DNA of 64,000 bases, from positions 682,001-746,000 of the forward strand of contig OZ374563.1 of NCBI GenBank assembly GCA_977862235.1, given 5' to 3'. This document shows, one piece after another, positions 1 through 20,491 of this stretch. The translations under genes and the position numbers were made by a program. The notes under the pieces were generated by a model. The model searched no databases. It had not been told where the DNA came from and was given only the letters and a program-made list of their open reading frames with translations. The stretch comes from Dudresnaya verticillata (Eukaryota). The stretch's first letter is position 1; the number at the start of each line of letters is the position of its first letter.

Positions 1-830
1 GACGGGCGCCGTCGAGATTGGGACCGTGAAGCAGTGATTTGTCACTATTGGGAACCGCTCCACAACGGCCGCCTGTGGCGGCGGTTACAAGTGAGCCGTT
101 GGCCCAATACTCCACTGGGATTTCAAGCTCGCCCAAGACGGGGCCAGTAGAAACAGCCTTGCTGGCTTCGCGGGTCTCTCAGCTTTAACGAGGGGGCAGT
201 GTGGAAGAATGAGCCGCAGCAGAAGTGCTGGCGCACTGTAAGGCATTTGTGCGCATTAAGGTGTAAGGCGCCCACGCACATCAAGCTGTAAGGCGCGCAC
301 AAGCGCCGTGCGCTGTAAGGGCGATGCGCCCCGCTGGCGTCCCTGCTGGCACGTTATTTGATGGCAAATATTGCCATTGGATAATTTATCGTGGCCGCTC
401 CCGCGGCCCGACGCGGTACTACCACTAATCCGTATTTATAAGTGACAACAGTACAATTAGATTAATAATGACAGTTAGAATAGCTTAGAATAGCTCATTT
501 CGGCTCTTTATACTTAATAGGCCCCTGAGTAGCAGGGGCCTCCTGAATAGAACCCACGGTGGGTTTCGGGTCTTTACCCCTTTTCTGGAATTCACGGACT
601 CACCGTAACCTCCCTTTCAGGTGCTTTACGAGCCTTGCCTCCACACGACGGTTGCTCTGTGCGAGCTGGGTGGCACCGCCCCTTTTCCCCCTTTTCCCTT
701 AGGCTCCGTGCCTTTCAAAGTCTCCACCAACCCCTTTTCCCGAGCTACCTAAGCTAGTGTGTTGTGCACCTTCAGGACAGCTGTCCTTGCCGGCTGGCGG
801 GTTTCCGCCTTGACGGGCCATACTACTACA
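1..830 (+). mobile_element. LTR (3' or solo LTR; 5' end lies outside the window), related to the solo LTR at 15221-16041
   Basis: Ends CCATACTACTACA at 830. The last ~130 bp align by eye with the minus-strand end of the solo LTR (GCCTTT..AAG.CTC.ACCAA, CGAGCTACC, GGACAGCTGTC, CCATACT.CTACA). TATA-like TTTATAA near 436. No TGG PBS follows. Confidence 0.7.
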
Positions 831-1730: not shown

Positions 1731-2057
1731 GCGCAGCATTCTCATTGGCCGGCGCACTACTCTACATACTGTACATATACTCACTAAAAATAAAGAATAA
1801 ACACTACAAATACTCCGGTATGGTTGGTGCGCTACACTGCTGTACAGCAATGCGTACCAGCGTACAGCAACGCTCACAACACCGACACGGATACACGTTC
1901 ACACGTCGCACAACGGTAGAGACCACACTATATGCATTTCCACCGTCTTGGATGCCGAATCTCACTTCACCACAAGTGCGCCAGCGATGCGTACGGAGGT
2001 GCGCGTGTCTCGTGGGCCCCGATACCGTTACGCACGGGAAACAACGGGAAAGTCACG

Positions 2058-2262
2058 AAGGTGTCAGCGATTTCGTATCGGGTGCGCACTGTAATGCGAA
2101 TGCCATCGTGGCGCGCCCGATCACGAAGTCGGCTCGGGATTCATCCGGAGGTGTCAGCGATTTCGTATCACGTGCATGCTGTAATGCGAATGCCATCGTG
2201 GCGCGCGCACAGTATGCGCACTCTAATACGTTTGCCATCGTGGCGTGCGCATTCACGGAGTC
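2058..2262. repeat. Imperfect tandem repeat (~90-bp unit, 2 copies plus a partial third)
   Basis: AGGTGTCAGCGATTTCGTATC...TGTAATGCGAATGCCATCGTGGCGCGC occurs at ~2059 and ~2149. A third partial TGCCATCGTGGCG is at ~2233. Confidence 0.85.
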
Positions 2263-2301
2263 ATTTCTAAATTCGTATTTCTCGATTATTTTCACGTAGA
2301 C

Positions 2302-3160
2302 TGTGGTGCAAAGCGTCTGTAGACGATGGACCGCCGAGCAGTTCGGGGCTCGGTGGGTAGCTGCGCCCTTGGCGAGGGGTGATCTCGCCGTGGGCGACTT
2401 GGTGGTAGAGCAAAGGAACACGCCTTGGGCGGACTGTAGACGCCCGAGGCGGAAGGTGTGAAGGAAGGGAAAAGGGAAACAGAAAGGAACAAAAGGAAAA
2501 CACGTCAAGGACGGGTAGAGACGTGGAAGCACGGGAGGTAGACGCTTAGCCGTAGGCAGCGGTAGGATACGCGCTAGCGGAACGGGGAAGTCTGGACCAA
2601 GGCCGGCTTGTCCGGGGTTTACTCAACGTCGCAGACGGATTACCTAATATACTACGTGAGCGACGGCGGTAGGCGCGGTGCGCGGGAACTCAGGACGCGT
2701 GTCACGTCGTTGAGCGTCTGACACGTCGTCGTCGCCATGCAGCCGCCCGTGCGCGCGGGAGCTCAGGAGTAGCTTACAGGCGCGTGCGTGTAGCGTTGCG
2801 GGTGATCCGGATTCGGATCCAGATCCCGGCCAGCATTGCTGGCGCGCGGCCCTTACAGGCGCGCTCCTTACATCACGGTGGATCCGGATGCCGGATCTCG
2901 AAGTTCCATCCGGATCCGATCCGGATCCGGGCCAAGCTTACAGGCGGGCGCCCTGCGCCCGGCCGATCGGGATCGTGCATCCGGATCTGGCCGTACAGTG
3001 GGCGCGTGCGCCGCGCCGCGCGGGGTAACGGCGGCCGTATGCCCGTGGGCCAATCGTCGATGACGTGTTCGCGCGCCAACGGCGGTGGACGTTCCGTCGG
3101 TGGACGTTGGCATATAATACGCTCAGAGCGAAAAAGGGGCAGCCCTCACCTTGCACCACA
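2302..3160 (-). repeat. 3' LTR (859 bp)
   Basis: Bounded by the perfect 10-bp inverted repeat TGTGGTGCAA (2302) / TTGCACCACA (3151-3160). Preceded on the sense strand by a G-rich PPT. Sense TATA-like TATATTA at 2651-2645. Confidence 0.85.
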
Positions 3161-3172
3161 CGACCCCCTCGC
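3161..3172 (-). promoter_or_regulatory. Polypurine tract (imperfect)
   Basis: The sense strand reads GCGAGGGGGTCG immediately before TGTGGTGCAA. Confidence 0.65.
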
Positions 3173-3612
3173 AAAACGCGAACACGTCCGCCTCAAGCTT
3201 GTGCTTTCCTGCGGGTCCCGCTTTGTCGTGCGTGCGTTCCTGCGTTCCGGCTGTGCCGCGCTAACTTCCCGTGCTGCGCGTTGCGTCCGGCGAGCTCTCG
3301 TTCTCTCGCGCTCGTTTCACCGTTCTTCATCGCCGCTGGCGCATTGTGAATCCCGTCAACGACGCCACATCCAAATCGTCGCCTGGGGCGTGTCAGCTGC
3401 ATCGTCGTCGACGAGTTGTGTGAAGTTCATCGCCCAAGGCGCAGGTGTTTCCCGGTGACGCAGCTTCATCGTAGTCGCCCGTGGCGCAGAACAAAAGGCG
3501 TCTTTGACGTAAGCAAAAAGTGTAACCGCCTGTGGCGTGGGGCAAGAGTCGTCGTTGACGGTTGTTTGACCTTAAGCGCCAGTGGCGTAAGCGAAGTTGC
3601 GTCGTCGACGAT

Positions 3613-5967
3613 ATGCCGACGTTCAACGGTGTTCAGGTCGCGGCGCCCTCGGCCGCGCCGGTATACTTATCTCCATACGACTTCGTCGGAAAGAACCCGC
3701 AGGATCACGGGGATATTTTCGCGCAGCCCCCCTGGTTTGACCAGGAGGCCTTGCACAATGAGGAGCTCATTGCTCATTACGCTACTAGCGGATTTTTGCC
3801 GGGGGGACTCCCCCTTGCCGTCGTTTGGACGATGGATTGGAAGTTGCGCTGCGCGGTGCCGCCCGATTGGCTGTGGGTTCGCGCAGGGCAATTTCGTGCG
3901 GGCGTTCATGCCAAGTTCGTCGCAGACGTATATCGTCGTCCGATGCGTTATCCGTGCTCGGCGTTAACGCCGGCCATTTTCGAGTTCGATGCCGGTCAAT
4001 ACCGGACCAAGGGTGAGATCGAATATGGGAATCGTCTAGGGACGTTGTCGCTCAAACATCTGAGCGTTTCGGCGGAGCCGCGCATTAGGCAGGAGGCATA
4101 CCTCCTGGAAGTACGCTTGAAAGCAGATTTTCGTTACCAACACCGAACGGGGACGTTCTTTTGGGAACGATGCATACGTTGGGAATGTGAAACGCGTCGC
4201 TGAAAGGGCGTTTTTGTAGCCTACCAGGATATGCAGGTCGATCATATCGAACGCAGTAAGTTGCCTCATTGCTTCGTGAAGGTACCGCCCGTTTGGCGAG
4301 AGTTCGAAATTTGCGAAGGTTTCGCTGCCGAACTTCCTCCGTGTCTCACGTATATCGGGTCGGAGTTAATGACGGACCCGTACTCCAAGTGGTGGGTCAT
4401 GTTCTACACCGAATGGGTAGCAAACGTAGCGTACGCATGGATGTGGGAGGTGTATGACACCTTCCGCATGTATTATCTGCCACCTCGCATAGTCGCGTCT
4501 CTTGGTGGCCTGGACCTAGCTGACATACTCGGCAGGTCGAGGAACAGCCAGGAGTTCTGGGATTTGCGCTCAGTAGCGGATGAAATTAACTGGAACGACC
4601 CGGCGATGGTGCCGTGAGGGAACAACCGTCGTAAGACGAACCGCCCGCGATTCGCGATGAGTCGTACTCACTCCGCCTGTGGCGATTGGATCCATTATAA
4701 CCCATGGACAAAGCGTCGTACGACGAAGAACGTTGCGGAGCGCCATCGCAAAACGGATCGCTTCACCCCGGGTAATCACCCGCGTGGTTTTCGTAAGAGC
4801 TGCGACTTTGTCGGTGATTTTCCTCCGCACTTGAGTGCCTTGATGGCCGAGGAAGATGCTTTTAACGCCGATGGCGAACTGGATAACCCGTCTGGGACGG
4901 CTGTTGCTACGCCTATGGCGGTTGAGTCATCTGCCGAGGCTGCCGCTACACCATCAGCTTTACCACAAGGGTCTGTCGGTGGTGTTGGGGTGTCAGCTGG
5001 CTTGCCAGCTGTGGCACCTTTGGACCTTGCGGCTCCCGTCTCGGACGTTGATGGCGATGCCGTTATGGCGACGCCAATAGTCGAGTCGGCTCCGCCGACC
5101 GTAACGCCTCAAGGCGTAGTATCAAACGTCATAGACGGGTCTGTGAAGGCGCCCTCGGTGCCAGCCTGGACCGAGGAGCAGCGCCGCACCGTGCTTGCCT
5201 TAATGCGTGCAGCTGGAGTCGCTACTAGCGGTTTGAGTGGTTCGCCCACTGAGTGGGTGAACCAGTCTCTGGCGGATGCGTCGCGTTCCCAGAGTGCGTC
5301 GGTGCCGGTGCCGATGGTTGGCGTAGGTTCTGCGTCGAAAGACGGTGCCGACGGAAAGTCGTCATCGCCTAAGGCGACTGGTTCAGCGTCCAAAGACGTA
5401 ATTGCTACTGTACCGCCAGCGGCGAGCGAGGCAGATGTCGCTTCAACGTCTCCGACGGTTGAAGAGGGCCCAGTGGCTCCTGCGTTGATGACGGATATAG
5501 ATCCAATGAGGCCAAAGGCAGGTGAGGGGTCTACGTCGGTTCAGACGGTTGCGACAGTTGCGCCGAAGGCGGTATGTTCTGCGGCGCCGAAGGCGAGCGA
5601 TGTGTTGAACTCTACGCCAAAGGCGGTTGCGGTTGCTTCGCCGTCTAAGGGGACAGTCCCTGCAACTACGCCGAAGGCGGATGTTATCGGGGCAGCACCG
5701 GAGGCGAATGGACCACTTGGTTCTGCGCCGTCGGCGGTTGGGAAAGCCAAAGAGGCTTCGCCGCCTAAGGCGGGTGGCGAGTCGAATTCTTCGCCAGGGG
5801 CGCATATTACTCCTTCAGCTGTGGCGGTGGCGGTGCCTTTGCAGTCCGTCCCTGTTGCCGCTGTGGGTGTGCCGTCGGTGACGGAAGACGACCTCTATGA
5901 AGATGCGTTGAGGGAGTCCGCCGAGGGCGATGGTGCGGCGGACTCGGCCAAACCGTCTGCGACGTGA
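3613..5967 (+). pseudogene. Antisense accessory ORF of the retrotransposon (~784 codons, two in-frame TGA), unknown function
   Basis: ORFs 3562-4203, 4231-4617 and 4657-5967 are all in one frame. The gaps between them contain no stops other than TGA at 4201 and 4615. The N-half is Trp/Tyr-rich and globular-looking, and the C-half is Ala/Pro/Ser-rich. TATAAT at 3113 upstream and AATAAA at 6149 downstream. Confidence 0.7.
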
Positions 5968-7345
5968 CATAGTTAGCGTCGTTTAGGGCGGAAGGCCTTC
6001 GCGGGGGTGCGTATCGTGTACCTGGTCGGCTCCTTTGCGGAGTCGGGGCAAGGCGTCGTACGTCGTTGACGAATGTGTTAACTGTTCTGCGGCGTTTAGC
6101 CGCCGTGGCTTGTAGCTTGGGCGCGGGGCTTCTCCGTTGCTTAGCCCGAATAAATTGTATCGTTGGTAACGTAGTTTGGTTTCGTCTCGCTGCAACCGTC
6201 GTGTTGCAGCCGTCACGTCTTAGTGTTTTGCCACCGCGTTTCTTGTCTTCGTCGTGACGACGTTAGCGTATTAATCGTCGAGAGACGTTACTTGGGCGTT
6301 GTACCTCCCTTCTTGTTCGCACATTAGCGTTGTGTAGCGCGTCTGGAGCGTATAGGGGTTTAGCGACGTTGTCGGGGCCGAGCCTCTTGGTTATCTCGCT
6401 TAGCGAAGCGTTTCTTTGCGTTGCATTTCATCCTGCCACGCCCGACGTAGTCGTCTTAGGGGACTCGCTCAGCGCGTTGTTGGGCCATTTGCAACGCCTG
6501 GGGCGTATTCTCTTCTCGTTTGGTGCTCTGTAGCTTAGTTGCGCACGTCGTCGTTGACGGAGGTCGGCGTGTGGTAGGTGAGGTCAGAGCCTTGTTCCTC
6601 GTCTCCGACGTTCGCTTCCGAGGGTGGGGAATGGTCATCGCGCGACTGTGGCGGCCATTCCCAGCGGCGGAGCCAGTTGCGCGATTTGGTTAGCGATTCG
6701 GTTGTGCGTCGTGCACGGAACCGTGATAAACGCGTCCTCGACGACTCACTCCCCCCCTTTGGCTGCGGGTACGGCGGCGTGGCCCTTCTTCGGGAGGTGC
6801 GTCGGCGGCGTGGTGCGTGTGTTCGTGCCCGGCCGAGTCGTTCGCTGGCTGGGTAAGTGAAGGCGGCAGCGACTTGGCCGTGGTGCGCAAGCGTGCGGCA
6901 ACGTCGGGGACGGTCGTTGCGCGTTACGAAGTGCGTCTGGCGTCGTGCTTGCCGGTAGCACCGGTGCTGCCACTTGGCATATCTTGTTTGGCGTAATGGT
7001 TGATTGTCGGGTAGTGCGCCTCCCCTTTGTTTGGGCATTAAAATTTCCAGCTCGCGTCTGCGTCTGCAATGGGATTGGTGAGGAGCGTACCTCGGCGAGT
7101 GATCGGGAGCCACTGTCAGCCACCCGCGCATCCGGGGCGTTGTATGAGGCCCTTTTGGTATGTTTGTCGTTGACGCCAGATTTGTGTCCGGCTCCGTCGG
7201 TGACGTGTGTGCTTGATTGTCGCCGCGGCGGGTGTGTCCGCGTCCACGTACGTTAGAGGGGGCTTCCACGCCGTTGGCGACATCCTGTCCGCGCAGTCTC
7301 TGAACGTCATTGTATTCGCTATTAGCGTTGTTTTCCCGATTAGGG

Positions 7346-10300
7346 TTATCCGCGCTGGGCGTCCTCAATATTTGGAGCCAGGCGCGTGTGCTTCCGACGG
7401 TGGTACCGCACGGTGTGTGATCGCGGCAAACTGGACACGGGCTCCCAGGTGTTCGCTGAAGCGGGGTATCCAAACCACTTGACGCGGTAGAGGATCTCAC
7501 CATCATCCGCGTAGGCGTGCGACTCGATGCGTTCGATAACGTATTCTTTCCCGCTCACAGCGTTCGGCTTGGACCTGTGTCCTTCCAGCGCCTTTGGCGG
7601 TTCGTCTCGTTGCGTGATGGGCGTCTGGTCCGGTTCGGCGAAGCGTACTCGACGAGTTGATCGCCTGAGGCGTTGGCCGTGGGCCTCGGACGCTCGATCA
7701 GCGGTCAGTGGGTTGTTGCGTCTTGAGACAAGTTCATCGCTTGCAGCGCCGTGCTTCGTGCTTGCACGGTTAACGTCTTCGTTATCGGACGCGCTTTCAG
7801 CGGAGTCATTGTTCTCATTCGGCGGTGCCGTAGCGACGTGTTCCAAACGGGTGCGAACCCCTGGGGTATTGTCGTCGTTGGAGACGGATTGCGGAGCGCG
7901 GTCGTCGGGATCGGCAGCGAAGGGCCAAAGCTCTGCCAACCCACGGCTGCGTGACGCTGTGATCGTACGCTCTTGCGGATCTCTCGCAGTATGCGAAGTC
8001 TCTGCGTCCCCCTCCGGGTCCGCTGGTGGCGTGCTGGGGGTAGTCTTCCCTTCGTCTTGTGACGTGGGGGCGACTGCGTCCTGCTCCTCAGGCGGACCTG
8101 GTGGTACGACGATTGGAGGGGCCGCCTGACCCGGTGGGGTCGGCGCCCAGACCACGCGGTCTCGGTACAAACGTTCCCGCTCATTACGTCCCTTGTCGAC
8201 GGTTACTGTCTCGTTATCCACGTGAGTTACCCGATATGGGCCGTCCGCCACTGGCGCCAGCTTGTGCTTACGCTCTGCGCGATCCGTGCTCCCGCCGCGG
8301 GCGAAGTATTCCTTACGTACGAAGACGAAGTCGCCTATGGCGATTGATTCCTTCGATTTCCTTAATCGGGTATCGAAGTTTCGTTTGTAACGTGCTTGAG
8401 TTTTCTCTAACGACGCTTTAGCGGTTCCCATCAGTGCGGCCAACCAGGTTCGCCACTTGGTGTCGTATTGCCCCGCGGTGAGTACGCTTTCGAGCGAAGG
8501 TTCCGCTTCGAGCGACAGTGGGCGTGGTGGCTTAGACAGCACCAATTCAAACGGAGCGAGATGCGTAGACGAATGCAACTGTGTGTTGTATGCGAACGTC
8601 AAGGCATCCGTGAACAGATCCCAGTCTCTCGGATGATCCGCAACGTAGTGACGTAGCGAGGCCAGGATAGTTCGATTGAATCGTTCTGCCTGGCCATTGC
8701 ATTGCGGATGATATGTCGTGGTGAAGAGATTCTCCACTCCCAAAAGACGGCAGATATCCTGAAACAGCTTAGCCACAAACTGTGGTCCGTTGTCGGACAA
8801 CAATTTCTTGGGAGGACCGTACACGAAGACCCAATGTCGTACAAACGCCTTAGCGATTTCCAATGCCGTAATACTACGCAGTGGGACCGTCCGGACCAGC
8901 TTCGAGAAGCGGTCCACAATGACGAGTAGGAACTTGTTTCCTCGCTTCGTGCGTATGAGTTCGCCCAGGATGTCGATCGATACGAATTCGAGAGGCTCGG
9001 TTGCCGGGAACAACTTCAATTGCTTGGTGTTCTTTCGCAGCAATACGCGATTCTTAGCGCAGGTTACGCAGTTGCGGACGGTCGCGTAGCAGTCCACTGG
9101 CATCGATGGCCAATAGTATTCGCGTCGAAGCGTATGATACAACTTACGCCCCCCTGGGTGCCCTGCCAACTTGGCGTGGTGCCGGAGGTGGAGTAAGCGA
9201 GCGCGTAACGAGGAGGGTACGACCACTTGCGGACGGGCTTCCACCGTTCGGACCAACAGGCCCTGTTCATCCGTTGCGAACGGTAAGGTGACCCCGTCAT
9301 CAAGACGTTTCCGGACATCGTTACAGTAACTGTCATCGCCTTGGGCGTGTACCAACTCTTCATGCGTCACTTGACGAAGGAGTACCTCATCCGCCGGTGG
9401 CGTGTTGTTGATCAACACTTGGTCGAACTCTTCGAACTCGCGTTCGGCGAAGTCGACCTCGCCTTCGGCGTCTGACAGATCGTCTTGTGACGTTTGATGG
9501 CCGTCTTCGACGTAGCTTCCGTGATAGCACGGTATATCATCGTCAATGGGCTCGACGGTTTCTCCCTTCGTCTGTAGACGCGAAAGGGCATCTGCCTGAG
9601 TATTCAGGTACCCCTTTTTGTACTTCATGACAAAGTCGAACTCGGAAAGGCGAAGGCGCCACCGCATTAACCGTCCAGAGGGGTCGCTGATTTCCATCAG
9701 CCACCTCAATGACGAATGGTCCGTATGGACTGTGAACGACTCCATCTGGACGTAAGGTCGCAGCGTCACGACGGACCATACTACTGCGAGGCACTCCTTT
9801 TCGGAGACCGAGTAGTTACGCTCTGGAGCGGTGAGCGAGCGGGACCAGAAGCCGAGTGGCTTACGTTCCCCGCCTGGCTGCGTTTGAAAGAGAGCGCAGC
9901 CAACCTGATACTCGCTTGCGTCACAGTCGACGGAGTAGGGGAGACCCTGTTGTGGTAGCGCCAGCATAGGTGGATGAGTCACGGCCTCGAGGAGCGTACT
10001 GAACGCTTTGGCTTGTGTCTCATCAAACGGTGGTAACCGGAAGTCCTGTTCCTTCCTCAGCAACTTGTTGAGGGGGGCAGCGACGTGCGCGTATCGCGAG
10101 ACGAACCGTCGGTAGACGTTACAAAGACCGAGAAAACTCCGTAGCCCCTTCTGATCCCCTGGATGCTTGGCTTCGCGTAGCGCGGCAGTGACAGTTCGGT
10201 CAACTTCTAACCGTCCTGGACGTATGACGTGTCCTAAGTAGTTGACGGTCGGGGTGAAGAAGTCACACTTGGTCAACTTCAGAGTCACCCCGGCACGGTA

Positions 10301-12073
10301 CAATGTCGAAAGGATCTCGTCAACATGACGGAAGTGACTGTCGATGTCGCTGGAGAAGATTATTACGTCATCGAGGTAGACGATGCACGAACGCCACTTG
10401 TAACCAGCGAGCAGTATGTACAACGTTCGTTGAAACGTAGCGGGTGCGTTCGTGAGACCGAATGGCATACGCTTATAGCGGAACAGTCCGGCGTGGCACG
10501 TGAACGCAGTCTTATCGCGGTCTCGCGGATTGATCGGCACTTGCCAGTACCCACTGTTACAGTCTAGGGTGGTGAAGACGTTTGCTTCCCCTAGACTGTC
10601 GATGCATTCGTCGATACGCGGCAGCGGGTACGTGTCCCGTATGGTTACTGCGTTCAAACGACGGTAGTCTACGCAAAAGCGGAGGGTCCCGTCCTTCTTG
10701 GGGGCGAAGACCACTGGTGATGCCCACGGCGATTGTGCGGGTTCGATAACCCCTTGACGCAGCATGCGGTCCACTTCCGCTTGAGCGAGTTGCCTTTGCT
10801 TCGGCCCCGCTCGATAGGGCGGGGACGATATCGGTCTAGAGCCGGGAAGCAAGTCGATGTAGTGCTCTGTGGTTGAGATTTCTCCCAACGAACCGTCCCA
10901 CATAGACGAATACTTGCGCAACATCTCCTTAAGCCGGCCTTGATGCTCGGCGGGGAGTTGGCTCAGGTCCAAATCGTCTACAGACGGAGGTTTGGCAGTG
11001 GTTGCCTCGATAGACTTCGTGAAAGTATCCGGCTGCGCCGCAGTGTTATCGTTCGTTTGAAAACGGAAATCTTGGTTTGCCTTCTCCTCCTCGGCTTGTT
11101 CCTCCGTGAGGCCCAAAACATCGGCAAGACTTACGTGACTGGGGAACACTGCTGTCGGATGTGGTAACGCCGTCGCGGCGACTTGGCCTTTGGCCAGCGC
11201 CTGCGGGCGGGGAGAGAAGTTGGCAACCAGAATGCGAAACGCTTTTAGCGGCTCCACTTGAGCAATCCCGTTCGTAACGGCCAGACCTTGTTTGTCGTAC
11301 AGCGTTCCGAACGGTTGAATTGTGATGATGCCGGCGCGCTCGGTGGTCACCGATACCCATTGCTGCGCCTTAGGCGGGATGATCGCGCGCTCGGCGACTC
11401 GGATCTTGGGCGACGTCCTCCCCTCGGCCTTGCCGAATTCCTGTTCCGTTGGTAACGGAGGATACGACGGGGGTCGGCTCAGCGGGCGGCGCGTTATAGG
11501 GACACGAGTCCCGTCATCCAATTCAACCTCGCGACTTCGCGGATATATTGCTTCGACGAACCGGTCGCAAAAGTCACAGCCTAGTATCACCGGCGCAGCG
11601 AGTCGTTCGCAAACGATCAGTTCCAACTTGACGACTCTCCGTCCTAGACGAACGATCAGGTCGATGGTGCCTCTTGTCTGGATCGCCTTATTGTTGGCGT
11701 CGGCTATGACGGGGAGGCTCTTTGTCACGACGCGCGATCGCGCTTCCAGCGGAATGTCGTCGATGCGAATGAAATTCGGACCGGCCCCCGTGTCGAGGAC
11801 AGTGAGTTTACGTGCCAAGGTACTAACGGTTGCGCCCAAATCGGCGTACACCTTATAGTTCCTCTTGGCCATTACGAACAACTGCCCTCGCATTTGGGGG
11901 GGCTGGTACCTTCGCCATGGGCGTTTTAATGACGTCTGCGACGACTCTATCCGCCCGTTGGCGTCTTTTGTAACTAATTTCGGGCCCTCCTTCCGTGTCA
12001 GCACCCGAGGCCTAGGCCTCTCGTCGTGGTGCGACACCCCAGTGTCAGGTGTTGGTGCCCGAGTTAGTTTTTC
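7346..12073 (-). CDS. pol: Pol polyprotein (protease, RT, RNase H, integrase, chromodomain), entered by -1 frameshift
   Basis: LDTGAG protease, YLDD RT, DCDAS RNase H, HH..GHPG/CVTC zinc finger, DDE core and GPY motif. C-terminal chromodomain EYVIERI...YRVKWFGY...NTWEP. The frame is open from the slippery site at 12073. Confidence 0.97.
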   Translation of the reverse strand, partial: EKLTRAPTPDTGVSHHDERPRPRVLTRKEGPKLVTKDANGRIESSQTSLKRPWRRYQPPQMRGQLFVMAKRNYKVYADLGATVSTLARKLTVLDTGAGPNFIRIDDIPLEARSRVVTKSLPVIADANNKAIQTRGTIDLIVRLGRRVVKLELIVCERLAAPVILGCDFCDRFVEAIYPRSREVELDDGTRVPITRRPLSRPPSYPPLPTEQEFGKAEGRTSPKIRVAERAIIPPKAQQWVSVTTERAGIITIQPFGTLYDKQGLAVTNGIAQVEPLKAFRILVANFSPRPQALAKGQVAATALPHPTAVFPSHVSLADVLGLTEEQAEEEKANQDFRFQTNDNTAAQPDTFTKSIEATTAKPPSVDDLDLSQLPAEHQGRLKEMLRKYSSMWDGSLGEISTTEHYIDLLPGSRPISSPPYRAGPKQRQLAQAEVDRMLRQGVIEPAQSPWASPVVFAPKKDGTLRFCVDYRRLNAVTIRDTYPLPRIDECIDSLGEANVFTTLDCNSGYWQVPINPRDRDKTAFTCHAGLFRYKRMPFGLTNAPATFQRTLYILLAGYKWRSCIVYLDDVIIFSSDIDSHFRHVDEILSTLYRAGVTLKLTKCDFFTPTVNYLGHVIRPGRLEVDRTVTAALREAKHPGDQKGLRSFLGLCNVYRRFVSRYAHVAAPLNKLLRKEQDFRLPPFDETQAKAFSTLLEAVTHPPMLALPQQGLPYSVDCDASEYQVGCALFQTQPGGERKPLGFWSRSLTAPERNYSVSEKECLAVVWSVVTLRPYVQMESFTVHTDHSSLRWLMEISDPSGRLMRWRLRLSEFDFVMKYKKGYLNTQADALSRLQTKGETVEPIDDDIPCYHGSYVEDGHQTSQDDLSDAEGEVDFAEREFEEFDQVLINNTPPADEVLLRQVTHEELVHAQGDDSYCNDVRKRLDDGVTLPFATDEQGLLVRTVEARPQVVVPSSLRARLLHLRHHAKLAGHPGGRKLYHTLRREYYWPSMPVDCYATVRNCVTCAKNRVLLRKNTKQLKLFPATEPLEFVSIDILGELIRTKRGNKFLLVIVDRFSKLVRTVPLRSITALEIAKAFVRHWVFVYGPPKKLLSDNGPQFVAKLFQDICRLLGVENLFTTTYHPQCNGQAERFNRTILASLRHYVADHPRDWDLFTDALTFAYNTQLHSSTHLAPFELVLSKPPRPLSLEAEPSLESVLTAGQYDTKWRTWLAALMGTAKASLEKTQARYKRNFDTRLRKSKESIAIGDFVFVRKEYFARGGSTDRAERKHKLAPVADGPYRVTHVDNETVTVDKGRNERERLYRDRVVWAPTPPGQAAPPIVVPPGPPEEQDAVAPTSQDEGKTTPSTPPADPEGDAETSHTARDPQERTITASRSRGLAELWPFAADPDDRAPQSVSNDDNTPGVRTRLEHVATAPPNENNDSAESASDNEDVNRASTKHGAASDELVSRRNNPLTADRASEAHGQRLRRSTRRVRFAEPDQTPITQRDEPPKALEGHRSKPNAVSGKEYVIERIESHAYADDGEILYRVKWFGYPASANTWEPVSSLPRSHTVRYHRRKHTRLAPNIEDAQRG
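12025..12073 (-). promoter_or_regulatory. Putative -1 ribosomal frameshift signal
   Basis: G AAA AAC directly before the gag TAA, with pol in the -1 frame. Downstream GGCACC...GACAC-TGGG-GTGTC has stem or pseudoknot potential. Confidence 0.75.
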
Positions 12074-14637
12074 GACTGCGGCGGTGGTTGTGGCGCTTCA
12101 TAGCGGTTGATCATCGTCGGATGACGTTCTGCCGCGTGCGGCATGGGTCCGCCTCGTGGCGATTGTGGTCGTGCAGCACGGCGAGCAGCGTCGCGGGTCG
12201 CACGTTCTTTGCAACGTACATACGCATCAGCGGGGACACCAGCCTTCTCGGCTTCGGTTAGTCCTTCATAGTTGGTAATAACCTTCATGAAGTCGCTCAT
12301 GCGGAGGAAGCAGTCCGGCGCGATGTGGCCGCGGGCGTAGCATTGGTGGCATACCAGCTGCCGACGCGCGTCTTGACGGGGCGGGCCTCTGTCCTGCCAC
12401 CCGGGCCTTGCTCGGTGGACGTGAGGAGCATACTCGGAATAGGGGACGCGTGGCGCTGGCACGACCGAGCGCCCAAAGGCGAGAGCAGGGTCCATATCCC
12501 TTTCGTCCTCGTCATCGACGTAGCTGTCCGTTGGTAGGGCCGAGGTTGGCACCGACGCTTGCTCGTCTGCCAAGTACAAATCGCCTTCGGCGTGTGTTTC
12601 CATGTCATCGACAGGTCGACTAACGTCTCGGAACTCGATGGAGGACTCCGCTATCATAGCGCGCGCTCCAGGCTTGGCGCCTCTCGTCTGTGGACGCAGT
12701 ACCCCTCGGGCATCGCCGATGGCGGATCGCGGCGTGCGTACGGCTTGAGCCGGTGTCAGTAGGTCACGTCGCGCTGACGCGGAACCGGCTCTGCCGTGTC
12801 GTGCGCGGTTGGCATCCCCTTCGTCCTGTGCGAAGTGGACCAGCCGCTCAAATGACAACTCCGCCCTTGGCGTTTCTTCTCGGAAGCGAGCGACCAGAGA
12901 CCTGATCGACGGGTCTAACCCGTCGATGTACAGCGTCATCTTTTCCCAATCGGGATATACGTTACCGCAACGAATACACGCACCGGCTAGCCGCATCCCA
13001 TAGGTCGTCTCGTCCTCGCCTTGCTTTTGGGCAGTCGACCGTAGGGCGAGGACAGCGTCCCTGATCGCCGCTGGCGTAGCATACGTACGGAGGAGGTACT
13101 GTACCGCCTCCGGATACGAAGACACCCCGCCACGGTGGCGAGAAGATGTCGACTTGACGGAGCGGAATTGCGTGGCTGCCGTACCTCGCAAGAAGTACGG
13201 CAGCGCGACGAACGCTTGGGCTTCGCTCATCTCCAGCGTATCCGCTTCATCCGCGTAACGCGTCAGGAACTCGAGGACCATGACGGGGTCGCTGCCGTTG
13301 AAGGCGGCGTCCTTCATGGTCAGCTCCAAGCGCTTGATATGGTCTTTGACCTTACCCGTGTCGCGCCCTGAGCGTTTTTGCCCTACGTCTTTGAGACGGT
13401 ACGTCCTGTACGATAATAACTGATCGAAAAGGGGGTTGGAGGGGCGTAGCTCCTTCAACCCCTTGAACCGCTTTCCGCGAGGTCTTGCGGCACTGCCGAG
13501 AGTTGGGTAGTCGTCGTCTTCAGACGAAGAGTCCGATGACTCTCCGTCACTTGACGAGTCCGAAGACGATGAGGATGAGTCCCCTCGTCGATGACGATTC
13601 TTCTTCCGTCTCTGACGTAGCTTCCGACGGCGTTTCTTCCGGTCCTTACGTCTGTGACGATCTTCGCCTGAGCTCTCGTCACCTGACGGCGGACCATTGC
13701 GCCACTTGGCGGTTTCGAGACGCTCTAAGCGGGTCGCAAGTCGCTGAAAGCGTTCGCGTGAGCTAAGCTCAGAATGCGAATGAACCGAATGAACCGTTAC
13801 TGCCGGCGGTGGTTGTGTACCCTCGCCCTGGGCGTTTTGGTTCGTCAAGAGACGGTCGAGTTCGGAGCGTAGCCCTTGTAGGGCGCCGTTCCGATCCTCT
13901 TCCAACGTCTGTAGACGACTTGCGATTCCTCCGACACTGTCGTCCAGCAACCCGGCGAACCGAGCGAGCATCGCATCGTCCTCTAAGACGCACACCTCTC
14001 GGATCCGTTCGCGTGGTATCGTTAAGTTACTCACGCGGACGGCCGAGGGTGACGCCGTTGGCGGTTGGCTTTCGCAGTTGGACCGGTCGGGCGTCCCTTG
14101 CGCCCTTTGACTTGGCGAATTCGGCTTAGCCGGTGAACAACCGGCACTGCCGTGGGGAGTGGGGCAACATGCCCCGTGTGTCAAAGGTTCGTCACCGACG
14201 TTGCGCTCCGCGGAGCGCCCCTGTTCGTCGTTGACGTGGATGGTTGGTTGATCCGGAAGTTCCGGTTGTCCCGCGACGATGTCGGCTTGTGTTCCGTCTA
14301 CGACGTCCTGTTGCTCGGCTTGTACTGTATCAGCCGAGTCAACATAGGAGCGGTAGGTGCGGAGGGCCGATCCCTCGGGGACGGAGGTGCGGACGACGAC
14401 GGGGTTGTGGCGCGTCGGCGGGGGAGGTAACTCTCCTCCGTTGAGCGACGCGTGGGAGCCTGCGTGGCCATGGCCCGGGGGTAGCGTCGGGAACGCCGAC
14501 GCGATCTCGGGGCTCACGAGGCGCCCAGACCTCGTTGTCATCCGCTGTAGCGACCGTTCAGACGCGGGTACACTCCCAGGCGTCGAAGACGGTCTTCTTG
14601 AACTTGGGCCTCGCGACGGCGGCGGTCGTGAGGCCAT
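12064..14637 (-). CDS. gag: Gag polyprotein (857 aa)
   Basis: Long ORF just downstream of the PBS. Capsid-like region (FNGSDP...FL...QKQGEDETTYG) and CCHC knuckle CHQCYARGHIAPDC. Confidence 0.93.
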   Translation of the reverse strand: MASRPPPSRGPSSRRPSSTPGSVPASERSLQRMTTRSGRLVSPEIASAFPTLPPGHGHAGSHASLNGGELPPPPTRHNPVVVRTSVPEGSALRTYRSYVDSADTVQAEQQDVVDGTQADIVAGQPELPDQPTIHVNDEQGRSAERNVGDEPLTHGACCPTPHGSAGCSPAKPNSPSQRAQGTPDRSNCESQPPTASPSAVRVSNLTIPRERIREVCVLEDDAMLARFAGLLDDSVGGIASRLQTLEEDRNGALQGLRSELDRLLTNQNAQGEGTQPPPAVTVHSVHSHSELSSRERFQRLATRLERLETAKWRNGPPSGDESSGEDRHRRKDRKKRRRKLRQRRKKNRHRRGDSSSSSSDSSSDGESSDSSSEDDDYPTLGSAARPRGKRFKGLKELRPSNPLFDQLLSYRTYRLKDVGQKRSGRDTGKVKDHIKRLELTMKDAAFNGSDPVMVLEFLTRYADEADTLEMSEAQAFVALPYFLRGTAATQFRSVKSTSSRHRGGVSSYPEAVQYLLRTYATPAAIRDAVLALRSTAQKQGEDETTYGMRLAGACIRCGNVYPDWEKMTLYIDGLDPSIRSLVARFREETPRAELSFERLVHFAQDEGDANRARHGRAGSASARRDLLTPAQAVRTPRSAIGDARGVLRPQTRGAKPGARAMIAESSIEFRDVSRPVDDMETHAEGDLYLADEQASVPTSALPTDSYVDDEDERDMDPALAFGRSVVPAPRVPYSEYAPHVHRARPGWQDRGPPRQDARRQLVCHQCYARGHIAPDCFLRMSDFMKVITNYEGLTEAEKAGVPADAYVRCKERATRDAARRAARPQSPRGGPMPHAAERHPTMINRYEAPQPPPQSKN

Positions 14638-14744
14638 GATACAATCGTAGAGTTGCTTGAACGTCGTGGACGATTAGCGACAAACGTCAGAGACGGAGAG
14701 TCGGACGTCGCGCGACGGAGGAACTCGTTGAAACGTAGCACTGC

Positions 14745-14762
14745 TTCTAGGTCGGGAGACCA
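14745..14762 (-). promoter_or_regulatory. Primer-binding site, probably tRNA-Tyr
   Basis: TGGTCTCCCGACCTAGAA lies 2 nt after the terminal CA. Its complement ends CGGGAGACCA, matching the C1:G72/A73 acceptor end typical of eukaryotic tRNA-Tyr. Confidence 0.7.
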
Positions 14763-14764
14763 GA

Positions 14765-14848
14765 TGTGGTGCAAAGCGTCTGTAGACGATGGACCACCGA
14801 GCCCCGAACTGCTCGGCGGTCCATCGTCTACAGACGCTTTGCACCACA
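14765..14848. repeat. 84-bp palindrome replacing the 5' LTR (38-bp arms, 1 mismatch, 8-nt loop)
   Basis: TGTGGTGCAAAGCGTCTGTAGACGATGGACCACCGAGC-CCCGAACT-GCTCGGCGGTCCATCGTCTACAGACGCTTTGCACCACA. Bases 14794-14848 are the exact reverse complement of 2302-2356. Confidence 0.98.
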
Positions 14849-14937
14849 TAGACCACGGAGTCGTTCCGCGGATAGCGTCTATACCGCAAAGTGCACTCTT
14901 TGAGTTCACAAGAGACCTAAAAGGTACTTCGTTACAC

Positions 14938-15215
14938 CTATCGACGTGTGGAATCTCGGCGACGTCGGGCCGCAGCGGTTTCCATGTGCTTTCCATTCCA
15001 ACAGCGGTGGATGAAGTTTTGCGGCAACTCCTCGGCGGGTTCATACGTATCCTGGTCTGGTGGGTACCCGTAACAACGCACCTTGCAGGTCATGCCCGTG
15101 GGTTCTTCACGGTGTCCCGCGATCTGATAGATGATATACTCCGTGTCGGCATCAATTGTCTCGGGAACAAGGGCAGGAAGACCGCCTGGAGTTTGGGGCG
15201 TTACAGTAATACCAC
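14938..15215 (-). pseudogene. Decayed chromodomain of an older chromovirus pol
   Basis: EYIIYQIAGHR...KVRCYGYPPDQDTYEPAEELP resembles the intact element's chromodomain, with the conserved Trp residues lost. Confidence 0.8.
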
Positions 15216-15220
15216 CTGTG

Positions 15221-16041
15221 TGTAGCAGTATGGAAGCGGCCAGAAACAGCAAAGAACAAGAAAAGACAGCTGTCCGATGCCACACGCTAATGTGTGGTAG
15301 CTCGAGGGAGGATTGGTAGAGGCTTGGAAAAGGCGGGCCCTGATGACCCGAAAGGGGGGGTGCGGAAGCACGGTAAAGACTCGGCGCGACCGACTGAAGG
15401 AAAGTATAGAGGTTGCGACCCGGTGTTTTGTAGAGTACTTGTCGTACGATGTCTGGGCCTGTACTGGGCGACCCCTGCAGGCGCGGAGCGTCCGAGCGAC
15501 CAAAAGGTGGAAACTTCCCGAACAACTCCGCTGAGTGTTTATTATGAGGGCGCCGGCTATTCCGGCGCCCATAAGCAGGGCTTGACAGCCGAAAAGTCTA
15601 TCAGCCCGAAAGGGGGTCTAAGTTAGTCTGTGATTATAGATAAAAAGGTCAGTAATGTCATTACAAGTCAAAAGTGGGAATGTATTCCAGTTAGGGGACT
15701 TGGCGGCGGATGTGCCGGTGTGCATGACGAGGTCCCGGCTGCACTGTCGATAACCTGAGCGCAGAGGTGCTCCTCGTCCGTGAGTAGGAGCGCAGCGGCG
15801 CGTCATAAATCAGCCAATACGGGGTGTCCAACTGGCGCCATTACAATGCCACGTGTACGCCCCGTGTATAGCTGCACGTCCACGTGTACAGCTGTAAGTC
15901 CACGTGTACACACGTGTATTCCACGTGTCATCCACGTGTACAGCGATGAAAGGACAGCTGTCCTGATTAAGGGACAGTTTGTCCCGCGAAAAGGAAGGCG
16001 CTCCTGTCAGCCCTGCTGCTGACAGCGTCCATACTGCCACA
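15221..16041 (-). mobile_element. Solo LTR (821 bp)
   Basis: TGT...ACA ends with an imperfect 23-bp terminal inverted repeat (19/23). 5-bp TSD CTGTG at 15216-15220 and 16042-16046. Interrupts the old integrase-chromodomain linker. Confidence 0.9.
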
Positions 16042-16046
16042 CTGTG

Positions 16047-16600
16047 GGACACCACCTGGTGTTTGGGGTATTACTGTGGTGTCTTCCGCATGCTGGGGTA
16101 CTGTACCGCCCACGTCGGTGTGTGGCGTAACCGGCGGAGCCAATAGCGGCACCGGTTGAACGGGAAATCCAATTGGTACCTTAGTGATGCGATCGTTGCT
16201 GATGGGAACCAGGACGCCGTCCTGCTTGATAGTGACTACGGAGTCCGTTGCGGTGTGAACTTCGTAGGGGCCCGTCGATCTTGCGAGGAGCTTCTTCATT
16301 TGCTCCGCAAATTCACCGACGTGGGCAGGGCCTTGATCCAATCGGTCGCGTTCCTTCCGTTTGGTGGGTCGTAGATTACGCGGCGGGCGATCTACGTAGA
16401 CTTGATCGCCACCGCGAACCACCGGTTGGAAACGCACCTTACGGTCGAAGAGGGCCTTAGACTTCAACTGGGCTGCAGTCTGCTTGGTCTGCGCCTTCTG
16501 CAGGGCATAGCGCAAACGCCGCATGGTTCCCAGTTTTTGGAGCACGGGCGTCATACGCCCCTCCGTAACGGTTTCTTCCAACTCCACAGGGGTGCCCATT
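16047..16600 (-). pseudogene. Integrase C-terminal fragment of the older, 5'-truncated chromovirus
   Basis: AQLKSKALFDRKVR...GDQVYV...KKLLARSTGPYEV...ISNDRI parallels QARYKRNFDTRLR...GDFVFV...HKLAPVADGPYRV in the intact pol. Confidence 0.8.
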
Positions 16601-17678
16601 GCAGAGTTCTGCAAAGAATCATAACGACTACATTTTTCGCATTGCTGGATTTCTCCTGCGTTGCAGATGCCCTGTGGCGTAGACTATCTAGTGTCAAGCC
16701 AACGCGCACCCAAACAAGCTCGCGACACGTGTCAGGCGCGTGCGCGTGGCACGGTGGAACGTTGCGCGCCCCGATCGGCCCCACAAGCCGCGCAGTAGCA
16801 TTCCCTGTCCCGCACACGCGCACACCCGCTCGGCTTACGCACATGTCGGCTGCTGCTGCTGAGCCGCGGCGGAGGCGCCGCCTGTCTGGCGCTGTGCCAA
16901 ACGCGGAACAAACGCGCGCAAAGTCTACGGTCCCGCCGCCCGCGGCGTTTGCTCTGCGCCCTCCCGCGACCGGCCGCGCGCCGCGCCGCGCCGCGCCGCG
17001 CCGCGCCGACACGCTTTGTTGCTGCCGGCGCCGGCGCGACGCCCGACACGCCGCGCCACGCCGCGCCCTTTCTTTCCGGCGGCACTGCTCTTGTCGGTGC
17101 TTGTCGTGCTTGAACGCCCGCGCTATCTCGCAAACAGACAACCGTGCACTTCCTGTGCTTTTGATCCGCAGCCCGCCAACTGCTTTTCGGACGGCGGTTG
17201 CGCCTGGTGCGTCTGAAACTCTGCCAGTGCCCTGTCTTTGTCGTTGTAATCCGCCGTCGTTATCCTCCGGCCAGGAAACAGCTTCCCTTCCATCCAGCCT
17301 TTCTTCCGAGCCGAATCTACTCGCTTGCTACTTTCAAATCTAATGCCATTGCAGCCCCAGACTTGCTCAATACCATACACCACCGACCGCTACCACCTGT
17401 CCCGGCCCGCACCCCCATTTCGCACAACGCCTTTTAGTATGAAAACGCCCCGCAGCAACCACCTCCCGCGCAGGCCACCCGCTTAGGAAAGCAGACCAGC
17501 AACAACTTTCAATCCCACGGCTTCACCATGCCCTTCCAACCCACCTCATCCACCTTAACCCCTCACCAGTCTTCCTTCACTACAGCCGTCCCACGTTTGA
17601 GCAACGCTACACAAACGAACACCACCCCAACGCCCCGCCTCTCAAACCCCACACCTCCCACCCTTGCGCCAGCACACC

Positions 17679-18956
17679 ATGCCCGCAACCCGCCACAGCC
17701 ATGCCCACTTCGCATGTCTCTCCGCGCTCGTATTGACGCTACTCCTGCTGCCAGTCCCAGCCGACTCGCAACCAACGTGCGGCTTCGCCTTCCGCGACCT
17801 GCTGCGCTACTGCGCCCAGCCGGACCGCGCGTCGCCATCGAAGTGCTGCCACGCCGTGCGCCTCTTCAACGACGCCCTGTGCTGGTGCCAGCCGGCCGCG
17901 CTGGCCGCCGCGTCGCGCCTGGCGGCTAACCAGTACGCATTCGCGCTACGCGCCGAGTTCTGCGACGTCTCCGCCCCGTACCGTCCGTCCTTCCCCGCGC
18001 GCAATGGCCCGCCCACCCCCGACACCTGCCCGCCCGCCTTTGCCTCGCTGCCCGCCAACGCGTCGCAGGAGGGCTGCCCCGCTCCTGCGCAGCTGCGCGC
18101 GCGCCGAGAAGCTGCCGTAGAGAAACTGGACGGCTTGAGGCTTGCTGGAGTCGCGCCGGAAGATGTCAAGGCGTTCAGGGACCAGGTCGAGGGGCTCATG
18201 GTGGAAGATGTGTTATTTTCGAGTATTGGACTGTCGTACATCAACGGTGTTGGCCATGCTACGGATCTTTTGTTGAGCCGGCAAGACGCCGTTGGAAGCG
18301 AGGTGGACTGGTCTGGCGGACCGGAGGTTAGCGCCAGCGTGAAGGGCAAGTTTTGGCAAACCCCGGATATGGTCAGCTATTCCGTGGACTTTGTAGGTGA
18401 GGACGGGTTTTTCACCTCGAGACTCATGTTTGTCGGGTTTGAAAAGTGTTCCAACAAGATGCGATTTGTGTTCACTGCTGAACCGGGGGTCATCGAATCT
18501 ATAGCAAGCCAGTTTTACTATCCATCTGTGCCTGCCGACACAATAAGCCAGTATGATGTATCTGCAAAGGAAGTTTGTGACAAGATTGAGAGCGCTTGCG
18601 GGGATCGGGACGATTCTCCATTCGCTACAATGCAAGCCTGTATCGAGCATGTAACGGCTATGAAGGGAAATGGACAGGTGCTGTGTAACAACTTTGACCG
18701 AGAAGAAGTACCAGTTCTAGGTCTCTACGGAGATACTGTTGGCTGCAAGTATTCTCATGCTCTTGCTGCTGTTGCAGAGCCGGCAAAGATTTGCCCTCTG
18801 CTTGGTGCGACAGCGGGGGGTGTATGTGCGAAAGAGTTTTGTAGCAATGGAGAATATGCGGACATTTTTCAGTCTTCGGGACCGAGGTTTACTGGTTCGA
18901 GCTCATTCACATGCAATACTGGCACTGGGGTGTGTACTGAGAACTGGCCACAATGA
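17679..18956 (+). CDS. Secreted Cys-rich protein with an N-terminal eight-cysteine-motif-like module and an unknown C-terminal domain
   Basis: 425-aa ORF with a signal peptide (LSALVLTLLLLPVPADS), a C-x10-C-x10-CC-x10-CWC-x24-C-x21-C pattern and a second Cys-rich region at the C-terminus. Confidence 0.85.
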   Translation: MPATRHSHAHFACLSALVLTLLLLPVPADSQPTCGFAFRDLLRYCAQPDRASPSKCCHAVRLFNDALCWCQPAALAAASRLAANQYAFALRAEFCDVSAPYRPSFPARNGPPTPDTCPPAFASLPANASQEGCPAPAQLRARREAAVEKLDGLRLAGVAPEDVKAFRDQVEGLMVEDVLFSSIGLSYINGVGHATDLLLSRQDAVGSEVDWSGGPEVSASVKGKFWQTPDMVSYSVDFVGEDGFFTSRLMFVGFEKCSNKMRFVFTAEPGVIESIASQFYYPSVPADTISQYDVSAKEVCDKIESACGDRDDSPFATMQACIEHVTAMKGNGQVLCNNFDREEVPVLGLYGDTVGCKYSHALAAVAEPAKICPLLGATAGGVCAKEFCSNGEYADIFQSSGPRFTGSSSFTCNTGTGVCTENWPQ

Positions 18957-20491
18957 TACGTCATCCCCAAGGCTATTTCTTCGGCTCGAACATTGAAGTT
19001 GCGTTAGGGGACATTCAAAGGTGAGAAACGCACCAAGACGGTTCGATTGAGCACTCAGTGACTGATACTGTATGTCCGAGAGGGTCTCGTCGAGATAGTC
19101 GGAGCAGATGATGGCAAATCGCCACACATTCCCCCAAACCATACAAATATTCCAGGGGAATTGTACTTCCCCGACTTTACTGCAGCGTGCCTGACGTACC
19201 ATTATCATCACTTTATCAGTGTCCAGCTAAAAGGAAACCAGGTAATGTACATTGAGATGATTTCTACACTAGCATTTCTCACAACCACAGTTTTGTAGCA
19301 TGTCTACGTTCCTTTCGATTCTGTCATGCCTGTGTGATGTTACGCCTTGCTAGTATTTTAGGGTGCCTCAGAACAGGTTGTTCGCTAATATGAACCTTAG
19401 CAGAAGGCTCCTCAACATTTCTATAGCGGGAAGGTCAAAAAAGAACAAAGGGCTATAATGCATAGTACAAAACGAACACCCACAACTGCTGATGAGAGTT
19501 CATCATTATTTTGTGCAAGGTGCGGATTGAAATTGTTATCACTTTCAGGTCGTGTAACGCTACAATAGCATGTAGGGCAGGCAGTTGAGGTATACCTTCT
19601 CGTTCCTTTGCGGGAAAATTTGCTGTGTTCCACGTAAAAATTCAACGCTCAACGCGGCTCTTGTCCCAAAACAGCACTACACTGTCATTTCTATGCTACA
19701 TGCTCTGGAGAGCCACACGCAGTGGCATATGTTACAATGCAACAAGAATAACGGATATGCAAGCATTGGGTAACGGCATTCCATGAGTTTTACAATCTTC
19801 GCAGTCCAAAGAAGATGAAAGGCCAGAAAAGCTAACTAGTTATCAGAAGAAGCGGCATTAATCTGGCTCATATAGCAATCTCGCGGGATGTTTCGACATC
19901 GCAGTATGGTATCTCTCGCTGAAAAGGACAACTTTTGCTCTATTTTCGCAGGACTTTGGTACAGAGCAGTGCATAGTGTGGGAGCTATCCTCTGTGTCTG
20001 CACCGTTGACTACCTTCGAAGGTAGCTTGCCGTGCTCGTTTTATCGGTCACGCGTGAAGGGAGCTGCTGTGGCTCAGAGCAGTATTTTCCGAATCCCCTC
20101 CAAGGGGTCAGATATTTTTTTTGTTTGTAATTTGCTAGTTTTTCGAAAGTTTGTGGATCAACTCGTGAAGGTTCGCGATGAACCAGCTCGCCCGTTTGGA
20201 CGGGCAATCCCGTTTCCGAATGCCACTGTCTCCAGGAGAGCCCCGGTGCACCCTTTTCAACATCGCCACGCGCTCTAGCATGCAGCACAACGGCCGCCTC
20301 CTGTCTTGGAAGGCAAGGGTCCTCATCCCACGCATAGAAGCTTGAGGCGACGGCGATGACGTGGATGGCAAGCACATCATTGCACCGTGCTGGCAACTGA
20401 AAACAACTTGGAACCGGCACGCCCTTGGCCTGTCACTTCGTGCCGTCGTCCGGCGCGAGACTCGGGCCACTCCCTTCTGTTCCTGCTGGTC

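What the first reader, a model, noticed from the sequence alone, without database searches (positions are those of the whole stretch)
14765..14848. Retrotransposon whose 5' LTR is an 84-bp fold-back hairpin, giving U5-type sequence at both ends
Seen: the element has a clean TAGAC TSD and an 859-bp 3' LTR. Where the 5' LTR should be there is only an 84-bp palindrome followed by TC and the PBS. Its outer 55 bp are the exact inverse of the element's other end. The turn falls precisely on a 9-bp stem native to U5 (CCGCCGAGC-AGTTCGGG-GCTCGGTGG). Inference: this is the exact sequence expected if minus-strand strong-stop cDNA snapped back on that stem, copied U5 and the PBS, and served as the plus-strand primer in place of the PPT. 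Integrase would then see two U5 ends. An alternative is a double template switch using the 10-bp LTR terminal IR and the 9-bp stem, during reverse transcription or after integration. If this recurs across copies it would be a hairpin-primed replication route I do not know to be described for Ty3/gypsy elements. If unique, it is a fossil of aberrant reverse transcription.
Basis: partly seen in the sequence, partly recalled or inferred. Interest (0 to 1): 0.9.

Follow-up and report, generated by a model that had tools for sequence, protein, structure and literature searches.

The report
Retrotransposon with fold-back cDNA end
A seaweed retrotransposon copy has an 84-base hairpin where its front terminal repeat should be, most likely because its early DNA copy folded back on itself and was still integrated; only this one copy could be examined, so it is likely a rare copying accident, not a shown replication route.

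Summary
A chromodomain Ty3/gypsy element (2302-14848, minus strand, red-algal host) has a TAGAC target duplication, one 859-bp LTR with its PPT, and open gag and pol. In place of the 5' LTR lies an 84-bp hairpin: 55 nt of antisense U5, then 29 nt of sense U5, TC and an 18-nt PBS shared with a distant relative. New here: loop polarity shows that the folded strand was the minus-sense strand with its 5' end at the outer terminus, where the tRNA primer sits. A simple DNA-break fold-back predicts the flipped loop (10 of 84 mismatches) and is rejected. Best reading (0.6): minus-strand cDNA self-primed on the U5 stem, served as plus-strand primer, and integrase inserted a molecule with two U5 ends. 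Rivals: host double template switch (0.2), self-propagating route (0.05), assembly error (0.08). No genome, reads or second copy was available, so recurrence is untested. The intact U3 end and PPT argue that the family replicates normally. Self-priming is known in vitro as a dead end; ten paper searches showed no integrated example.

The parts
2297..2301 (.). Target-site duplication, left copy (TAGAC)
2302..3160 (-). 3' LTR, 859 bp, TG...CA, 10-bp terminal inverted repeat; the only full LTR
2331..2356 (+). Native U5 stem-loop (9-bp stem with one G.T, 8-nt loop), the turning point of the hairpin; more stable on the minus-cDNA strand (-8.4 against -6.3 kcal/mol)
3161..3176 (-). T-tract and G-rich polypurine tract, 3 nt before the LTR; same design as the tract before a neighbouring LTR-like start near 200
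3610..5967 (+). Antisense accessory gene of a family with no Pfam hit, interrupted by two in-frame stops (4201-4203, 4615-4617)
7346..12097 (-). pol, open frame of 1583 codons: protease motif, RT (YLDD), RNase H, integrase (HHCC, rve), chromodomain; overlaps the end of gag (frameshift inferred)
12064..14637 (-). gag, open frame of 857 codons with a CCHC knuckle; most homologues carry PF03732
14745..14762 (-). Primer-binding site, 18 nt, identical in the distant relative L002 (from 3262)
14763..14764 (-). 2-nt spacer TC between the U5 end and the PBS
14765..14793 (-). Inner hairpin arm: last 29 nt of U5, normal orientation
14794..14848 (-). Outer 55 nt: exact antisense copy of the U5 end, including the stem-loop; replaces U3-R
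14849..14853 (.). Target-site duplication, right copy (TAGAC)

Best explanation
This copy of a red-algal Ty3/gypsy element has an 84-bp U5 hairpin in place of its 5' LTR, likely because a tRNA-primed minus-strand cDNA folded back on a U5 stem and primed the plus strand, giving a DNA with two U5 ends that integrase likely inserted. Inferred steps: (1) cDNA synthesis stopped, or was trimmed, 53-55 nt into U5; (2) the 3' end paired on the 9-bp stem and copied U5, the 2-nt spacer and the tRNA end; (3) after primer removal it annealed by the PBS to a second, complete minus strand; (4) both strands were completed; (5) integrase processed two TG...CA ends and left a 5-bp duplication. The copy has no U3-R at its 5' end and is predicted to be a dead end. 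Shown: the anatomy, the strand polarity and the duplication. Not shown: when it arose or how often it happens.
For: The hairpin reads as 55 nt antisense U5 and then sense U5, which is what a self-copying minus strand gives. The stem is more stable on that strand, keeps 9 bp of pairing there, and the reverse direction has 2 nt of exact overlap. The folded strand's 5' end is the outer terminus: 0 of 84 mismatches against 10 of 84 for the flipped, break-repair orientation (the cut points were taken from the observation, so only orientation is tested). The arm ends exactly at the LTR terminus, with 1 bp of extension beyond it, which the tRNA-DNA junction explains with no extra event. The stem is the best 3'-terminal hairpin among cDNA stop positions up to nt 147. 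The duplication sits at independently defined ends. Self-priming of minus strong-stop DNA is known for HIV-1 in vitro (PMC6088434, passages), and HTLV-1 proviruses that lost the 5' LTR before integration keep their duplication (PMC6950816, passages).
Against: A two-switch event that uses the 10-bp terminal repeat and the stem gives the same 84 bp. The review states that self-primed products are dead ends and were not detected in endogenous HIV-1 reactions. Stronger terminal hairpins lie further into the LTR; nt 55 ranks 7th of all stop positions scanned. Two stops in the conserved antisense gene suggest that the copy or its parent is not brand new, which leaves time for change after insertion. 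No reads confirm the junction.
Confidence: 0.6

Rival explanations
1. Double template switch, most likely by the host after insertion. A strand entering the 5' LTR from the flank jumped after 10 nt to the opposite strand at the U5 end by way of the terminal inverted repeat, copied 45 nt backwards and returned at the 9-bp stem, deleting about 800 bp. A PPT-primed plus strand could do the same during reverse transcription.
For: The outer junction lies on the 10-nt identity between the U3 start and antisense U5, the longest microhomology found. It keeps the duplication automatically. Short templated inversions through 10-bp microhomologies occur at yeast breaks (PMC11724301, abstract and section 15). 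The antisense gene's two stops allow some age.
Against: It needs two switches and a jump of about 840 nt, against one aberrant step for self-priming. The simple fold-back at a break, as in PMC11724301, predicts the flipped loop (10 of 84 mismatches).
Confidence: 0.2
2. A self-propagating route: the family normally primes its plus strand from the U5 hairpin, and hairpin-ended copies make hairpin-ended daughters.
For: gag and pol are open with catalytic motifs in place. The junctions are exact. Penelope elements show that recurring inverted, palindromic 5' ends can reflect self-priming (PMC3846280, passages).
Against: The 3' LTR keeps a U3 attachment end and an adjacent PPT of the same design as a neighbour's, which such a route would not need. 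The hairpin copy lacks U3 (promoter) and R (first strand transfer). The one relative that reaches its PBS has no fold-back there (L002), though it is distant (37% Gag) and decayed.
Confidence: 0.05
3. Assembly or library artefact: a chimeric fold-back read or a mis-join replaced a normal 5' LTR.
For: The junction is unverified, and perfect hairpins are a known trouble spot in sequencing (general knowledge).
Against: The outer join rests on only 10 nt of homology, too short for a graph mis-join. A read that folds back would also mirror the flank, but the palindrome extends 1 bp past the LTR ends. The duplication is exact, and the two flanks share a 9-nt word reached by 7 of 500 random 60-mers, weak support for one original site. 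The window has no N.
Confidence: 0.08

Closest known systems
Chromodomain-bearing Ty3/gypsy LTR retrotransposons
   Same: gag, PR-RT-RH-IN-chromodomain order, PBS, PPT, TG...CA LTR, 5-bp duplication.
   Different: No 5' LTR; inverted U5 ends instead of direct LTRs; an antisense accessory gene with no Pfam hit.
cTAR self-priming of HIV-1 minus strong-stop DNA (PMC6088434, passages read)
   Same: The 3' end of minus cDNA folds on an LTR stem and is extended back over U5.
   Different: There it is an in vitro product at the natural cDNA end, called a dead end and not detected in endogenous reactions. Here it would have been completed and integrated, probably from a shortened cDNA.
HTLV-1 proviruses lacking the 5' LTR (PMC6950816, passage read; the primary paper was not held)
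   Same: The 5' LTR was lost before integration and the duplication is intact.
   Different: Integrase used an internal sequence there. Here the end is a perfect second U5 terminus and the PBS is kept.
Penelope-like elements with inverted pseudo-LTRs (PMC3846280, passages read)
   Same: A short inverted copy of the terminal repeat with a palindrome at the 5' junction, read as self-priming, inside a duplication.
   Different: A different order of retroelement, with no DDE integrase or tRNA priming (recalled); recurrent there, one copy here.
Local fold-back inversions at DNA breaks in yeast (PMC11724301, abstract and section 15 read)
   Same: A short templated inversion made through an imperfect 9-10 bp inverted repeat.
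   Different: The loop polarity predicted for this locus is the opposite of that observed.

Membership tests
Ty3/gypsy LTR retrotransposon | Pol order PR-RT-RNase H-integrase | tested here: met
   RVT_1 466-625, RT_RNaseH 720-820, Integrase_H2C2 960-1017, rve 1033-1131; DTGA motif at 102
Ty3/gypsy LTR retrotransposon | gag upstream of pol | tested here: met
   No direct Pfam hit, but 38 close homologues, most with PF03732; CCHC knuckle
Ty3/gypsy LTR retrotransposon | PBS, PPT, TG...CA ends and a short target duplication | tested here: met
Ty3/gypsy LTR retrotransposon | Two direct LTRs | tested here: not met
   One LTR; the hairpin replaces the other. Read as a structurally defective copy derived from the superfamily, not an intact member.
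Chromovirus branch | Chromodomain at the integrase C-terminus | tested here: met
   PF00385, E 4.9e-9, residues 1519-1558
Chromovirus branch | RT groups with chromoviruses in a tree | not tested
   No tree was built
DIRS-type elements with inverted terminal repeats | Tyrosine recombinase in place of a DDE integrase; no target duplication (recalled) | tested here: not met
   rve integrase and a 5-bp duplication present; no recombinase hit in the 8 frames scanned
Penelope-like elements | GIY-YIG endonuclease or none; no integrase, no PBS (recalled) | tested here: not met
Hairpin-primed replication route (proposed) | The same hairpin end at several independent target sites | not testable with these tools
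   No genome held; no exact U5 match in three collections
microRNA precursor | Rfam match at the gathering score | tested here: not met
   Best 55 bits against a cut-off of 100; structure-only match

The most novel reading that the evidence does not exclude
In this red-algal gypsy family the U5 stem repeatedly turns minus-strand cDNA into a plus-strand primer, so that hairpin-ended, two-U5 copies are integrated at many sites: a PPT-independent route to integrable DNA, possibly self-propagating with the loop alternating in orientation between generations.
Probability: 0.12. Interest if true: 0.8.

Novelty: new variant of a known kind. Interest (0 to 1): 0.45.

Why it matters
Self-primed minus-strand cDNA is described as a dead end that nucleocapsid suppresses (PMC6088434). 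A genomic copy with an exact target duplication would show that such a product can be rescued through the PBS, completed without a U3 end and integrated. It also names a structure, one LTR plus a short inverted U5 end inside a duplication, that LTR finders requiring two direct repeats would skip, so its frequency in genomes is unknown and cheap to measure. As a single copy it is a fossil of one event. It would matter much more if it recurs.

Tried and rejected
No whole genome is held for the window. No sequencing run was listed for 11000-19500 (none listed, which is no evidence), so no reads were laid. An exact 24-nt U5 pattern had 0 matches in the metagenome, viral and prokaryote collections; the PBS pattern had 0 in viral contigs. 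The Gag alignment gave 2 loci of 105 stretches in metagenomes, 0 of 93 in viral contigs and 0 of 3 in genomes; Pol gave 0 of 2 in viral contigs. L001 does not reach a PBS. No tRNA gene lies in the window, so the primer is unidentified; a tRNA-Tyr-like end is recalled, not tested. Rejected: chance, microRNA family, DIRS and Penelope membership, simple break fold-back. Earlier-findings look-ups gave nothing for this genome or sequence and one loose analogue. Four older virology papers were not held; two of them, recalled as describing rearranged unintegrated retroviral DNA, could hold a precedent. No supplements were read.

Full report
Observation. The feature is as described. Positions 14765-14848 form an 84-bp palindrome with 38-bp arms, an 8-nt loop and one G.T pair. 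It is far beyond chance: z -16.4 with 0 of 200 shuffles as stable, and a perfect arm of 32 bp against 8-13 in 20 of 20 Markov controls. The outer 55 nt are a 100% inverse of 2302-2356, and TAGAC flanks both ends. A BLASTN of the LTR against the window finds no second LTR, only the two hairpin arms and short low-score words.

The element. It runs on the minus strand from 14848 to 2302. After the hairpin come TC, a PBS, gag (857 codons, open, CCHC knuckle) and pol (1583 codons, open) with RT, RNase H, integrase and a chromodomain. Then follow an antisense gene, a T-tract and G-rich PPT, and an 859-bp LTR with a 10-bp terminal inverted repeat. The PBS is independently supported: a distant relative from a metagenome, L002 (37% Gag identity), has the same 18 nt upstream of its gag. 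The host is a red alga; the best named hit of a host gene is Agarophyton chilense at 75%. The element sits just past the chromodomain of an older gypsy remnant.

Which strand turned. Read from the flank, the hairpin matches antisense U5 for 55 nt and sense U5 for its last 31 nt, an exact overlap of 2 nt. A strand made in this direction has 9 bp of pairing at the turn, with a tolerated G.T (-8.4 kcal/mol). On the other strand the same position is a C.A mismatch (-6.3), and a switch in that direction would rest on 2 nt. So the strand that turned had the polarity of minus-strand cDNA.

Where its 5' end lay. If the folded strand began at the outer terminus and was extended into the PBS, the predicted sequence equals the observed one. 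If it was continuous with the PBS side and extended toward the flank, as in fold-back repair of a break inside the LTR (PMC11724301, section 15), the loop would be flipped, with 10 of 84 mismatches. The cut points in this test came from the observation, so it tests orientation only. It removes the simplest host-repair explanation and leaves the geometry of tRNA-primed cDNA.

Best mechanism (0.6, inferred). A tRNA-primed cDNA ended 53-55 nt into U5, paired on the stem, and copied U5, the 2-nt spacer and the tRNA end. It then annealed through the PBS to a complete minus strand and was extended as the plus strand. The finished DNA had a U5 end on both sides. Because the first 10 bp of U3 and antisense U5 are identical, integrase would see a normal terminus. 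The stem is the best 3'-terminal hairpin among stop positions up to nt 147, though only 7th over the whole LTR. Self-priming of minus strong-stop DNA is known for HIV-1 in vitro, where the review calls it a dead end and says it was not detected in endogenous reactions (PMC6088434, passages). Integration of DNA that lost its 5' LTR beforehand is known for HTLV-1 (PMC6950816, passage).

Rivals. A double template switch through the 10-bp repeat and the stem gives the identical sequence and stays open (0.2). It needs two events, but the antisense gene carries two in-frame stops in a region that 66 and 42 alignments among 139 aligned homologues span, so the copy or its parent has some age. An assembly error is unlikely on structural grounds but unchecked (0.08). 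A self-propagating route is unlikely (0.05): the 3' LTR keeps a U3 end and a PPT like that of a neighbouring LTR-like start, and a hairpin copy has neither U3 nor R at its 5' end. The one relative that reaches its PBS has no fold-back there, which is weak evidence given its distance and decay.

What could not be done. No genome is held and no second copy was found in the collections scanned, which hold little red-algal DNA. Copy counting and read support, the two decisive checks, remain open.

Novelty. Ten full-text searches showed no integrated LTR element with this structure in their listings. I read passages of four papers and the abstract and one section of a fifth; four older virology papers were not held, so a precedent there is possible. 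The nearest structural analogue is the inverted, palindromic 5' end of Penelope elements (PMC3846280, passages), a different order. An earlier scan note on a yeast copia remnant ending in a fold-back is a loose analogue that I did not test.

Verdict. A real and unusually clean structure, best read as the integrated product of cDNA self-priming in a defective Ty3/gypsy copy. New variant of a known kind; interest 0.45. If it recurs at other target sites (probability about 0.12) it would deserve about 0.8.

Noticed in passing
window 3610-5967 (+): Antisense accessory gene inside the element. 140 homologues at E up to 0.001, no Pfam hit in 10 of 10 homologues scanned, two in-frame stops here. A TATA-like motif at 3113 in the 3' LTR points toward it.
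   Followed up: partly
window 184-645 (+): Likely remnant of a related LTR: the same T-tract and G-rich tract before TGTGG near 200, three CTGTAAG motifs as in this element's U3, and a possible CA end near 645.
   Followed up: partly
window 14938-16683 (-): Older gypsy remnant with a weak chromodomain hit (E 0.002) and a frame resembling an integrase tail; the hairpin element inserted about 85 bp past it.
   Followed up: partly
window 12064-12097: gag and pol overlap by 34 nt with an A-rich run just before the gag stop, a likely -1 frameshift site.
   Followed up: no
L002 326-366: A 20-bp-arm palindrome with a 1-nt spacer, 90% complementary, far upstream of that element's PBS.
   Followed up: no
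window 2056-2248: Three degenerate copies of a 61-nt unit, spaced 90 and 42 nt, next to the insertion site.
   Followed up: no
window 20689-62582: Ordinary-looking host genes by eye: SET-domain, beta-amylase-like, DnaJ-like, HIRA-like, shikimate-kinase-like and complex I subunits. Only the 61005-62582 gene was searched.
   Followed up: no
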